A stretch of 64,000 nucleotides of DNA, taken from the NCBI RefSeq assembly GCF_013122565.1, contig NZ_CP053258.1; one strand, 5' to 3'. A program made the position numbers. Of this stretch, positions 24,901-26,446 are shown in pieces (positions within the stretch are counted from its first letter, which is position 1; every line of letters starts with the position of its first letter). The DNA comes from Escherichia coli (lineage in GTDB: Bacteria > Pseudomonadota > Gammaproteobacteria > Enterobacterales > Enterobacteriaceae).

Positions 24901-26446
24901 CAGCTGGCGCTGCTGCCGGTGACCCGTCGCTTTATCTTCCTTGAAGAGGGAGATATTGCGGAAATCACTCGCCGTTCGGTAAACATCTTCGATAAAACTG
25001 GCGCGGAAGTAAAACGTCAGGATATCGAATCCAATCTGCAATATGACGCGGGCGATAAAGGCATTTACCGTCACTACATGCAGAAAGAGATCTACGAACA
25101 GCCGAACGCGATCAAAAACACCCTTACCGGGCGCATCAGCCACGGTCAGGTTGATTTAAGCGAGCTGGGACCGAACGCCGACGAACTGCTGTCGAAGGTT
25201 GAGCATATTCAGATCCTCGCCTGTGGTACTTCTTATAACTCCGGTATGGTTTCCCGCTACTGGTTTGAATCGCTGGCAGGTATTCCGTGCGACGTCGAAA
25301 TCGCCTCTGAATTCCGCTATCGCAAATCTGCCGTGCGTCGTAACAGCCTGATGATCACCTTGTCACAGTCTGGCGAAACCGCGGATACCCTGGCTGGCCT
25401 GCGTCTGTCGAAAGAGCTGGGTTACCTTGGTTCGCTGGCCATCTGTAACGTTCCGGGTTCTTCTCTGGTGCGCGAATCCGATCTGGCGCTGATGACCAAC
25501 GCCGGTACGGAAATCGGCGTGGCATCCACTAAAGCATTCACCACTCAGTTAACTGTGCTGTTGATGCTGGTGGCGAAGCTGTCTCGCCTGAAAGGTCTGG
25601 ATGCCTCCATTGAGCATGACATCGTGCATGGTCTGCAGGCGCTGCCGAGCCGTATTGAGCAGATGCTGTCTCAGGACAAACGCATTGAAGCTCTGGCAGA
25701 AGATTTCTCTGACAAACATCACGCGCTGTTCCTGGGCCGTGGCGATCAGTACCCAATCGCGCTGGAAGGCGCATTGAAGCTGAAAGAGATCTCTTACATT
25801 CACGCTGAAGCCTACGCTGCAGGCGAGCTGAAACACGGTCCGCTGGCGCTGATTGATGCCGATATGCCGGTTATCGTCGTTGCACCGAACAACGAATTGC
25901 TGGAAAAACTGAAATCTAACATTGAAGAAGTTCGCGCGCGTGGCGGTCAGTTGTATGTCTTCGCCGATCAGGATGCAGGTTTTGTCGGTAGCGATAACAT
26001 GCACATCATCGAGATGCCGCATGTGGAAGAGGTGATTGCACCGATCTTCTACACCGTTCCGCTGCAGCTACTGGCTTACCATGTCGCGCTGATCAAAGGC
26101 ACCGACGTTGACCAGCCGCGTAACCTGGCAAAATCGGTTACGGTTGAGTAATAAATGGATGCCCTGCGTAAGCGGGGCATTTTTCTTCCTGTTATGTTTT
26201 TAATCAAACATCCTGCCAACTCCATGTGACAAACCGTCATCTTCGGCTACTTTTTCTCTGTCACAGAATGAAAATTTTTCTGTCATCTCTTCGTTATTAA
26301 TATTTGTAATTAACTGAATATAAACGCTTATTTAAATCAGACGGAAGACTTTCTCTCTCTGTCATAAAACTGTCATAAACCTTACATATAACTGTCACCT
26401 GTTTGTCCTATTTTGCTTCTCGTAGCCAACAAACAATGCTTTATGA

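What the first reader, a model, noticed from the sequence alone, without database searches (positions are those of the whole stretch)
26258..26399. Extended Pho-box array upstream of pstS
Besides the canonical CTGTCATAAAACTGTCATA pair and the adjacent AACTGTCAC at 26359-26399, further CTGTCA half-sites occur at about 26258-26290 (CTGTCACAGAATGAAAATTTTTCTGTCATCTCT). This is consistent with multiple PhoB dimers at the pst promoter, which is known, and serves as an internal control that the regulatory annotation here is sound.
Basis: partly seen in the sequence, partly recalled or inferred. Interest (0 to 1): 0.15.

Follow-up and report, generated by a model that had tools for sequence, protein, structure and literature searches.

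The report
Conserved extra PhoB sites upstream of pstS
The two extra CTGTCA motifs upstream of the well-known pstS phosphate-starvation promoter are real and belong to a distal module conserved in about 50 enterobacterial species, probably weak auxiliary PhoB sites next to an IHF-like bending site; PhoB binding there has not been shown, and many E. coli strains lack the module.

Summary
CTGTCA occurs on the + strand at 26258, 26280, 26359, 26370 and 26392.

**Core promoter.** 26359-26398 is the classical pstS promoter. It holds Pho box 1 plus Pho box 2, and the "adjacent AACTGTCAC" is the second half of box 2. These boxes are identical in K-12.

**Upstream pair.** On this sequence alone the evidence is weak. 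PhoB matrix scores are 8.4, 6.8 and 7.2, against a median of 14.8 for ChIP-bound sites. The best score is not significant against local shuffles (P=0.15). K-12 ChIP-seq and ChIP-exo show no separate peak there.

**Cross-species evidence.** The pair is half-sites 1 and 3 of a four-half-site array (26259-26297) in 11-bp register. 47 other Enterobacteriaceae species keep this array exactly 101 bp upstream of box 1. Their matrix scores there equal those of canonical box 2. A conserved IHF-like motif follows the array, and the spacer beyond it is unconserved.

**Dispensability.** About 43% of complete E. coli genomes replace this stretch with an lpf fimbrial operon.

**Verdict.** This is a known promoter plus a probable, apparently undescribed, dispensable auxiliary PhoB/IHF module. 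Interest is modest.

The parts
24322..26151 (+). glmS coding sequence (context; 609 aa ORF)
   Evidence: ORF list. The same stretch is annotated glmS in E. coli records.
26157..26182 (+). glmS intrinsic terminator hairpin followed by a T run
   Evidence: Terminator scan: 11 pairs, 6 of them G-C. The attTn7 insertion point lies in this area (my knowledge).
26228..26240 (.). Inverted repeat TGACAAACCGTCA (TGACA-N3-YGTCA), 32-33 bp upstream of half-site 1; function unexplained
   Evidence: Present at a fixed offset in 29 of 48 species sequences. Visible in the MAFFT alignment A3 as ATGACA-ATC-TGTCAT.
26258..26264 (+). Distal half-site 1, CTGTCAC (perfect core)
   Evidence: The orthologous hexamer is TGTCAT, TGTCAC, TGTAAT, CGTCAT or TTTCAT in 48 of 48 sequences, and all five are variants seen in ChIP-bound half-sites. 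Mean information is 1.71 bits.
26269..26275 (+). Distal half-site 2, TGAAAAT (poor PhoB match, but K-AAAAT is highly conserved)
   Evidence: Mean information is 1.76 bits. The hexamer is GAAAAT or TAAAAT in 44 of 48 sequences, and only 1 of 48 hexamers is seen among ChIP half-sites.
26280..26286 (+). Distal half-site 3, CTGTCAT (perfect core; strong only in the E. coli K-12-like allele)
   Evidence: Other genera have TGAAAW or CGAAAT here. The window is the only one of the 48 sequences with TGTCAT at this position.
26291..26297 (+). Distal half-site 4, TCGTTAT (decayed here; TGTCAT or CGTCAT in most genera)
   Evidence: 36 of 48 orthologous hexamers are ChIP-type half-sites. The window has CGTTAT. 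Median matrix score of the box formed by half-sites 3 and 4 is 10.1 across species and 7.2 in the window.
26307..26319 (-). IHF-like motif position (YAANNNNTTGATW); the window has TAATTAACTGAAT, 2 mismatches
   Evidence: At this fixed offset (+48 from half-site 1), 29 of 48 sequences have at most 1 mismatch, against 3 of 2,496 positions in the neighbouring spacer. T48, A49, T56 and G57 are nearly invariant.
26319..26331 (+). Second IHF-like motif, TATAAACGCTTAT (1 mismatch to WATCAANNNNTTR; perfect TATCAACGCTTAT in K-12)
   Evidence: K-12 alignment and string position. An effect of IHF on pstS expression is known only from the titles of Spira & Yagil 1999 and Taschner 2006.
26359..26376 (+). 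Pho box 1, CTGTCATAAAACTGTCAT
   Evidence: Matrix score 22.9, rank 1 in the window. It is the motif instance of the strongest K-12 ChIP-seq peak. Conserved in all 80 species.
26381..26398 (+). Pho box 2, CTTACATATAACTGTCAC
   Evidence: Matrix score 15.3, rank 4. Conserved across species.
26409..26414 (+). -10 hexamer TATTTT of the pstS promoter, 10 nt after Pho box 2
   Evidence: Position. Invariant across genera. Its assignment as the -10 rests on my knowledge of the K-12 promoter.
26465..27505 (+). pstS coding sequence (346 aa)
   Evidence: ORF list. Annotated pstS in matching E. coli records.
26154..26358 (.). Allele-specific segment. It is absent where an lpf fimbrial operon sits between glmS and pstS, and homology resumes at 26351-26360.

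Best explanation
26359-26398 is the classical pstS promoter. Two tandem Pho boxes (four half-sites at 11-bp spacing) take the place of the -35 element. They bind two PhoB~P dimers, which recruit sigma-70 RNA polymerase to the -10 TATTTT at 26409-26414. This part is established knowledge.

The extra CTGTCA motifs at 26258 and 26280 are half-sites 1 and 3 of a second array of four half-sites (26259-26297), also in 11-bp register. This array starts 101 bp upstream of box 1 and is followed by an IHF-like motif.

I infer that the array is a low-affinity auxiliary PhoB-binding module. Each of two PhoB dimers would sit on one good and one poor half-site. An IHF-induced bend would bring them next to the core promoter and raise PhoB occupancy or cooperativity there. 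The module is helpful but dispensable.

Shown here: the motifs, their register, and their conservation in position and in PhoB-compatible sequence. Inferred, not shown: PhoB binding, IHF binding and any effect on transcription.
For: 1. Forty-seven other Enterobacteriaceae species, from Escherichia to Klebsiella, Enterobacter, Citrobacter, Kluyvera, Kosakonia and Siccibacter, carry the array. The distance to box 1 is 101 bp in almost all of them.
2. Within 240 aligned bp, the only offsets with a high median PhoB matrix score are 101, 0, 112, 123, 22 and 134. These are the known boxes and the distal array. Medians are 10.5 and 10.1 for the distal boxes against 10.4 for canonical box 2.
3. Information content is 1.71 bits at half-site 1 and 1.30 at half-site 4, against 0.47 in the spacer 61-100 and 1.82 in box 1. 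MAFFT gives the same blocks independently.
4. Variants at half-site 1 are exactly those tolerated in ChIP-bound sites (48 of 48), and 36 of 48 at half-site 4. The control is 0.76 of 48.
5. In the K-12-like allele the strong half-site has moved from position 4 to position 3 by point changes. This turnover fits selection for binding rather than for one exact sequence.
6. Where insertions of 0.7-3.7 kb separate glmS from pstS, the module stays with pstS.
7. The IHF-like motif at +48 has at most 1 mismatch in 29 of 48 sequences, against 3 of 2,496 background positions.
8. Within E. coli the module is much less polymorphic than the next 60 bp. There are 0 against 5 differences to K-12. Of the 3,066 module-bearing records, 2,402 are identical. 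The spacer query found only 243 genomes and none identical.
9. The unrelated lpfO113-type allele carries its own strong inverted Pho box (score 18.4) 73 bp upstream of box 1, in 1,479 genomes.
Against: - In this strain the scores are low (8.4 and 7.2). A best score that high occurs in 15% of local shuffles.
- K-12, which is identical here, shows no separate ChIP-exo peak over 26258-26297. Its ChIP-seq peak centre (window 26390) is not pulled upstream. That ChIP-exo study called only 12 PhoB peaks, so its sensitivity is low.
- Half-site 2 (GAAAAT or TAAAAT) is as conserved as half-site 1 but is not PhoB-like: 1 of 48 hexamers is seen in ChIP half-sites. PhoB alone therefore does not explain the whole block.
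- A conserved inverted repeat TGACA-N3-YGTCA further upstream is also unexplained.
- 579 E. coli genomes carry CTGACAC at half-site 1, which drops the score to 5.1.
- About 43% of complete E. coli genomes lack the module, and the O157 lpf2 allele has no substitute site.
- From memory, the deletion analysis of Kimura et al. 1989 defined the promoter as the two pho boxes plus the -10. I could not read that paper.
Confidence: 0.5

Rival explanations
1. Vestigial relic. The array was an auxiliary PhoB site in the enterobacterial ancestor, but in E. coli it is decaying and no longer contributes. The two perfect CTGTCA cores are leftovers.
For: - E. coli scores (8.4 and 7.2) are at the bottom of the species range, whose medians are 10.5 and 10.1.
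- Half-site 4 has decayed to CGTTAT.
- A common polymorphism breaks the core of half-site 1 in 579 genomes.
- About 43% of genomes have lost the segment altogether.
- There is no separate ChIP peak in K-12.
Against: - Within E. coli the module is still far less polymorphic than the adjacent 60 bp.
- Half-site 3 was gained as a perfect CTGTCAT while half-site 4 decayed. This looks like compensation rather than plain decay.
- The lpfO113 allele has acquired or kept its own upstream Pho box.
Confidence: 0.25
2. The conserved block is read by another protein, or by PhoB together with another protein. Candidates are a different OmpR/PhoB-family regulator or a nucleoid protein that recognises the A-tract. 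The TGTCA similarity would then be only part of the story.
For: - Half-site 2 with its A-rich flanks (A-AAA-K-AAAAT) is the most invariant part, yet it is not a PhoB half-site.
- The conserved inverted repeat TGACA-N3-YGTCA upstream does not fit head-to-tail PhoB binding.
- OmpR-family half-sites are all alike (my knowledge).
Against: - Half-sites 1 and 4 vary only among PhoB-tolerated variants.
- The PhoB matrix picks out exactly these offsets and no others.
- The element is tied to the strongest PhoB target in the genome.
- KdpE affects pstS only as an indirect target in the ChIP-exo study.
Confidence: 0.15
3. The distal array is the Pho box of a second, upstream PhoB-dependent promoter (P2) that reads into pstS.
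For: The half-sites have the same orientation as the core boxes. A conserved TA sits about 9-10 nt after half-site 4.
Against: - The hexamer at the expected -10 position is TAAnnn, with T at its last position in only 26 of 48 sequences.
- The invariant TG at +56/57 is followed by hexamers that end in A in 33 of 48.
- The sigma-70 scan finds no promoter in 26100-26500.
- The window has TAATTA at the expected -10 position.
Confidence: 0.05
4. Chance, or a duplication scar. The upstream CTGTCA cores would be random hits in an AT-rich spacer, or a copy of the edge of box 1 left by gain or loss of the lpf island.
For: - The best matrix score is not significant against local shuffles, P=0.15.
- A 14-nt direct repeat, TCTCTGTCACAGAA and TCTCTGTCATAAAA, links 26255 and 26356.
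Against: - Position and sequence are conserved over about 50 species, while the flanking spacer is saturated with changes.
- Other genera have no extended similarity between the two contexts.
- Species that never show an lpf operon at this locus carry the module.
Confidence: 0.05

Closest known systems
E. coli K-12 pstS promoter (two tandem Pho boxes plus -10; Makino 1988 and Kimura 1989 from memory; ChIP-seq in Fitzgerald 2023, PMC10294691)
   Same: 26359-26414 is this promoter. All half-sites and the -10 are identical to K-12. The whole spacer aligns without gaps and has 7 substitutions.
   Different: The window differs from K-12 at 26378-26379 (AA for TT, between the boxes) and at five positions in the spacer, one of which weakens K-12's perfect IHF consensus. 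The described promoter does not include 26258-26297.
Upstream auxiliary Pho boxes at other PhoB promoters: the phoE upstream element (Tommassen 1987, from memory), the multiple boxes at ugpB, and the two sites at phoB
   Same: Extra PhoB-type sites lie beyond the box that replaces the -35 element. The lpfO113-type pstS allele even has an inverted upstream box, as reported for phoE.
   Different: Here the extra array lies 101 bp away. It is made of strong-weak pairs, is coupled to an IHF-like motif, and has no binding data.
IHF-assisted distal activator architecture (for example NarL-IHF at narG, or sigma-54 enhancers; my knowledge)
   Same: The order is distal activator sites, then an IHF-like bend site, then the core promoter. 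Spacing is strictly conserved over an otherwise unconserved spacer.
   Different: The promoter is sigma-70 dependent and already has proximal sites for the same activator. Looping and IHF binding are inferred only.
CusR/HprR-type inverted box ATGACA-N4-TGTCAT (my knowledge)
   Same: The conserved repeat at 26228-26240 has TGACA and YGTCA arms.
   Different: The spacer is 3 nt, not 4, and there is no evidence of binding. I mention it only as a lead.

Membership tests
Pho box (PhoB~P binding site), canonical boxes 26359-26398 | Two 7-bp direct repeats close to CTGTCAT, separated by an A/T-rich 4-bp spacer (11-bp period) | tested here: met
   CTGTCAT-AAAA-CTGTCAT and CTTACAT-ATAA-CTGTCAC. Matrix scores are 22.9 and 15.3, ranks 1 and 4 of 127,966 positions.
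Pho box (PhoB~P binding site), canonical boxes 26359-26398 | Takes the place of the -35 element, about 10 nt upstream of a -10 hexamer | tested here: met
   Box 2 ends at 26398 and TATTTT lies at 26409-26414. This is invariant across genera.
Pho box (PhoB~P binding site), canonical boxes 26359-26398 | Bound by PhoB in vivo | tested here: met
   From published K-12 data on an identical sequence. The ChIP-seq peak centre 3911600 maps to window 26390, and the ChIP-exo peaks flank the boxes.
Pho box, distal array 26259-26297 | Two 7-bp direct repeats close to CTGTCAT with an A/T-rich spacer, 11-bp period | tested here: inconclusive
   The register is exact at 26259, 26270, 26281 and 26292. Each box, however, has one perfect and one poor half (TGAAAAT, TCGTTAT). 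Scores are 8.4 and 7.2 against a ChIP median of 14.8, and local-shuffle P for the best score is 0.15. Across species the same positions score a median of 10.5 and 10.1, equal to box 2.
Pho box, distal array 26259-26297 | Adjacent to a -10 hexamer (promoter-proximal activator position) | tested here: not met
   There is no conserved -10 at the expected distance, and no sigma-70-like promoter is found. At most it is an auxiliary site, not a promoter Pho box.
Pho box, distal array 26259-26297 | Bound by PhoB in vivo or in vitro | not testable with these tools
   Published K-12 ChIP-seq and ChIP-exo show no separate peak over the equivalent 3911693-3911732. A weak site 100 bp from the strongest peak in the genome could be masked.
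Pho box, distal array 26259-26297 | Sequence variation among relatives stays within what PhoB tolerates | tested here: met
   48 of 48 hexamers at half-site 1 and 36 of 48 at half-site 4 are seen in ChIP-bound half-sites. The control is 0.76 of 48. This is not met at half-site 2 (1 of 48).
IHF binding site | Match to WATCAANNNNTTR | tested here: inconclusive
   The window has 2 mismatches at 26307-26319 and 1 at 26319-26331. K-12 is perfect at the latter. Across species, 29 of 48 have at most 1 mismatch at the fixed offset, against 3 of 2,496 background positions.
IHF binding site | IHF binding and bending shown | not testable with these tools
   Only the titles of Spira & Yagil 1999 and Taschner 2006 could be seen. 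The papers are not held.

The most novel reading that the evidence does not exclude
The pstS promoter of Enterobacteriaceae is built like a small enhancer. A distal tetramer of PhoB on a strong-weak/weak-strong array is folded by IHF onto the core PhoB-RNA polymerase complex. This would give pstS its exceptional occupancy: it is the only PhoB target bound at high phosphate in Fitzgerald 2023. Selection for such an upstream helper site would be strong enough that an unrelated allele, the lpfO113 junction, has its own inverted Pho box at a similar distance. Natural E. coli alleles with, without or with a different helper site would then differ in the threshold and kinetics of the phosphate-starvation response.
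Probability: 0.25. Interest if true: 0.45.

Novelty: new member of a known kind. Interest (0 to 1): 0.28.

Why it matters
pstS is the reference promoter for PhoB and for the whole OmpR/PhoB family, and PstSCAB is itself the phosphate sensor input. A conserved helper module would change how PhoB affinity, cooperativity and response timing at this promoter are modelled.

It would also mean that common E. coli lineages differ in their Pho-regulon set-point. K-12-like strains carry the module, 579 complete genomes carry it with a changed half-site 1, lpfO113-type strains carry a different upstream site, and O157 lpf2-type strains carry none.

If the module does nothing, the result still shows how far a matrix scan of a single sequence can mislead in either direction.

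Tried and rejected
- **Small ORF.** ATG at 26269 would encode MKIFLSSLRY. The ATG exists only in the E. coli allele, since other genera read AAAGAAAAT, and there is no ribosome-binding site. Rejected.
- **Known RNA family.** Nothing is significant in 26100-26500; the best E-value is 0.33.
- **Second promoter.** There is no sigma-70-like hit and no conserved -10 or extended -10 downstream of half-site 4.
- **Duplication or excision scar.** The 14-nt repeat at 26255 and 26356 is not found in other genera that carry the module.
- **CRP-type reading of TGTCACA.** No TGTGA half lies at the right spacing (read from the sequence).
- **Element belongs to the glmS 3' end or attTn7.** It stays with pstS when insertions separate the two genes.
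- **Literature.** Kimura 1989 and Spira & Yagil 1999 are not held. The supplement of Gao & Stock 2015 with their 22-bp matrix is not held. Searches for a described upstream PhoB site at pstS found nothing. RegulonDB and EcoCyc could not be consulted, so a prior description cannot be excluded.
- **Salmonella** was not among the 80 loci returned and was not checked.
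Full report
**Where we are.** The window around the finding reads glmU (456 aa), glmS (24322-26151), a 313-bp spacer, then pstS (26465-27505), pstC and pstA, all on the + strand. The 421 bases around the spacer match 5,424 of 5,426 complete E. coli genomes at 95-99.5% identity, and the genes under the match are annotated glmS and pstS. K-12 MG1655 aligns to 26140-26480 without a gap. It has seven substitutions: 26302, 26312, 26322, 26343, 26353 and 26378-26379. K-12 coordinates therefore convert exactly: window = 26465 + 3911525 - K-12 position.

**The observation.**
- CTGTCA lies on the + strand at 26258, 26280, 26359, 26370 and 26392.
- The window as a whole is not enriched for the hexamer: 23 found, 25.9 +/- 5.1 expected.
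- Five copies on one strand within 140 bp is a local cluster. From the density elsewhere, 0.029 copies are expected on the + strand of 26152-26358, and two are seen (P about 4e-4).
- One correction: the "adjacent AACTGTCAC" is the second half of Pho box 2 (CTTACATATAACTGTCAC, 26381-26398). The known promoter already accounts for three of the five hexamers.

I built a PhoB matrix from the 59 motif instances in Table 1 of the K-12 ChIP-seq study of Fitzgerald et al. 2023 (PMC10294691), leaving out the pstS instance.
- Box 1 scores 22.9 (rank 1 of 127,966 positions in the window), box 2 scores 15.3 (rank 4), and the overlapping middle register scores 14.4.
- The upstream region gives three hits in 11-bp register: 26259 = 8.4 (rank 33), 26270 = 6.8 (rank 79) and 26281 = 7.2 (rank 66).
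- That is far above genome-wide background. ChIP-bound sites, however, have a median of 14.8, and only two score below 8.
- In 20,000 dinucleotide shuffles of the AT-rich stretch 26186-26358, a best score of 8.4 or more turns up in 15% of cases. Two same-strand TGTCA cores in 11-bp phase turn up in 0.3%, a post-hoc test.
- On this sequence alone the test is therefore borderline.

**Published binding data for the identical K-12 sequence do not help the upstream pair.**
- The ChIP-seq peak centre, 3911600, maps to window 26390, inside box 2.
- The two PhoB ChIP-exo peaks of Choudhary et al. 2020 (PMC7657598, supplementary table) are 3911549-3911584 and 3911629-3911670. These map to window 26406-26441 and 26320-26361 and flank the core boxes.
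- Nothing is called over 26258-26297.
- That ChIP-exo study found only 12 PhoB peaks in all. A weak site 100 bp from the strongest peak in the genome could also be masked. This is absence of support rather than disproof.

**Relatives change the picture.** A scan of one genome per species with the PstS protein returned 80 Enterobacterales loci. glmS lies next to pstS in most of them, with a spacer of about 300 bp.
- *Position.* In 47 species from many genera a TGTCAY core sits at a fixed distance from box 1. The genera include Leclercia, Enterobacter, Lelliottia, Citrobacter, Kluyvera, Klebsiella, Raoultella, Kosakonia, Phytobacter, Siccibacter, Franconibacter, Trabulsiella, Yokenella, Pluralibacter and Atlantibacter. 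The distance is 101 bp in almost all of them. It is 90-92 bp, about one helical turn less, in E. albertii and two other Escherichia genomes, which are not among the 47.
- *Matrix profile.* I took the 48 sequences in register, ungapped. The only offsets in 240 bp with a high median PhoB score are 101, 0, 112, 123, 22 and 134. These are the known boxes and the distal array. The distal boxes have medians of 10.5 and 10.1, the same as canonical box 2 at 10.4.
- *Information content.* It is 1.71 bits at half-site 1, 1.76 at half-site 2, 1.20 at half-site 3 and 1.30 at half-site 4. The spacer between the module and box 1 has 0.47 bits, and box 1 has 1.82.
- *Independent alignment.* A MAFFT alignment of 22 genera shows the same blocks.
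- *Allowed variants.* At half-site 1 the only hexamers seen are TGTCAT, TGTCAC, TGTAAT, CGTCAT and TTTCAT. All five are common among ChIP-bound half-sites. At half-site 4, 36 of 48 are such variants. Control offsets give 0.76 of 48.
- *Linkage to pstS.* Where 0.7-3.7 kb of other DNA separates glmS from pstS, the module stays at its place upstream of pstS.
- *Absence.* It is missing in Serratia, Yersinia, Cedecea and a few others.

**Anatomy of the module.** Most genera have the pattern strong (TGTCAY), weak (GAAAAT or TAAAAT), weak (TGAAAW), strong (TGTCAT). The K-12-like E. coli allele, including this window, is the only one with a perfect TGTCAT at position 3, and it has a decayed CGTTAT at position 4. 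The strong site has moved by 11 bp through point changes, which fits selection for binding rather than for one exact sequence.

Ten bases after half-site 4 lies a motif that fits the IHF consensus in reverse (YAANNNNTTGATW).
- It has at most one mismatch in 29 of 48 sequences, against 3 of 2,496 positions in the neighbouring spacer.
- T48, A49, T56 and G57 are nearly invariant.
- The window has two mismatches there (26307-26319) and one mismatch in a second motif at 26319-26331. K-12 carries that second motif as a perfect TATCAACGCTTAT.
- An influence of IHF on pstS expression has been published (Spira & Yagil 1999; Taschner et al. 2006). I could see only the titles.

**What the module is not.**
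- It is not a known RNA family.
- It is not a sigma-70-like promoter.
- It has no conserved -10 at the distance used by Pho promoters. The last base of the candidate hexamer is T in only 26 of 48 sequences.
- The small ORF starting at 26269 exists only in E. coli.
- The short repeat between 26255 and 26356 is not found in other genera, so it is not a duplication scar.

**What PhoB does not explain.**
- Half-site 2 and its A-rich surroundings are as invariant as half-site 1 but do not look like a PhoB half-site.
- An inverted repeat TGACA-N3-YGTCA lies 32-33 bp upstream of half-site 1 in 29 of 48 species. In the window it is 26228-26240. It does not fit head-to-tail PhoB binding.
- A second protein, or intrinsic DNA shape, may be involved.

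**Variation within E. coli.** The module (26234-26298) is present in 3,065 of 5,426 complete genomes.
- 2,402 of the 3,066 matching records are identical to the window.
- 579 genomes share a variant in which half-site 1 reads CTGACAC, which lowers its score from 8.4 to 5.1.
- The next 60 bp are much more variable. K-12 differs at five positions there and at none in the module. Only 243 genomes are found with that query, and none is identical.
- In the remaining genomes the segment 26154-26350 is replaced by a long polar fimbriae operon, and homology resumes at 26351-26360, right at box 1. This arrangement is known (PMC2608844).
- The lpfO113-type junction, found in 1,479 genomes, carries a strong inverted Pho box (TGTCATCTTTTTGTCATG, score 18.4) 73 bp upstream of box 1. 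Two Enterobacter species with a fimbrial operon at this place have one too.
- The O157 lpf2-type junction, in 355 genomes, has none.
- The module is therefore dispensable. An upstream PhoB-type site nevertheless recurs in an unrelated allele.

**Conclusion.** The core of the finding is the textbook pstS promoter and confirms the identity of the region. The upstream half-sites are real and conserved. They are most likely part of a weak auxiliary PhoB module coupled to an IHF bend (confidence about 0.5). The main rival is that the module is only a relic in E. coli (0.25). Other rivals are that another factor reads the block (0.15), that it is a second promoter (0.05), and that it is chance or a scar (0.05). 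I found no description of this module in the papers I could search. The older primary papers, RegulonDB and EcoCyc were out of reach, so the claim of novelty is provisional. Interest is modest: it would refine a model promoter rather than reveal a new kind of system.

Noticed in passing
window 26154-26358; loci L004, L005, L003: The glmS-pstS spacer has at least three alleles in complete E. coli genomes. The K-12-like 313-bp spacer is in 3,065 genomes, an lpfO113-type fimbrial operon in 1,479, and an O157 lpf2-type operon in 355. Homology to the window stops just after the glmS stop codon and resumes at 26351-26360, exactly at Pho box 1.
   Followed up: yes
L005 8936-8953 (also L003, L043, L048): The lpfO113-type junction carries a strong Pho box on the opposite strand (TGTCATCTTTTTGTCATG, matrix score 18.4) 73 bp upstream of box 1. 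It lies between the end of lpfD and pstS. It could be an independent auxiliary PhoB site, or it could link lpf to phosphate control. No -10 is obvious on that strand.
   Followed up: partly
window 26228-26240: A conserved inverted repeat TGACA-N3-YGTCA (window: TGACAAACCGTCA) lies 32-33 bp upstream of distal half-site 1 in 29 of 48 species. It is not in 11-bp register with the array. It resembles a CusR-type box but with a 3-nt spacer. Unexplained.
   Followed up: partly
L087, L088 (equivalent to window 26258-26264): 579 complete E. coli genomes carry CTGACAC instead of CTGTCAC at distal half-site 1. The two examples I read share further spacer changes with the window (AAACC between the boxes). 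PhoB matrix score drops from 8.4 to 5.1.
   Followed up: yes
L089, L090 (E. coli VE-F5; equivalent to window 26177-26251): Tn7 (tnsABCDE plus a class 2 integron with dfrA1-sat2-aadA1) sits between glmS and pstS. Its pstS-side end abuts the equivalent of window 26251. About 75 bp downstream of the usual insertion point are therefore missing, while the distal module is kept.
   Followed up: partly
window 792-809 and 779-796: TGTCACCATCAGGTCATA at 792-809 is the rbsK PhoB ChIP-seq site of Fitzgerald 2023. It is a member of the matrix training set, so its score is not independent. A second hit of score 15.0 overlaps it on the other strand. Its position, with the atp operon just upstream of glmU in related genomes, suggests the window is collinear with K-12 from about 3.938 to 3.874 Mb, reversed. 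In that case it should contain oriC.
   Followed up: no
window 48546-48563 (- strand): TGTAAAAAAGTTGTAATA scores 15.6 with the PhoB matrix, the third best in the window, but it is not among the published K-12 ChIP-seq sites. I did not examine it.
   Followed up: no
window 26378-26379: The 4-bp link between Pho boxes 1 and 2 reads AAAC here and in many E. coli, E. albertii and Kluyvera, but ATTC in K-12. This raises the matrix score of the middle register from 13.1 to 14.4.
   Followed up: partly
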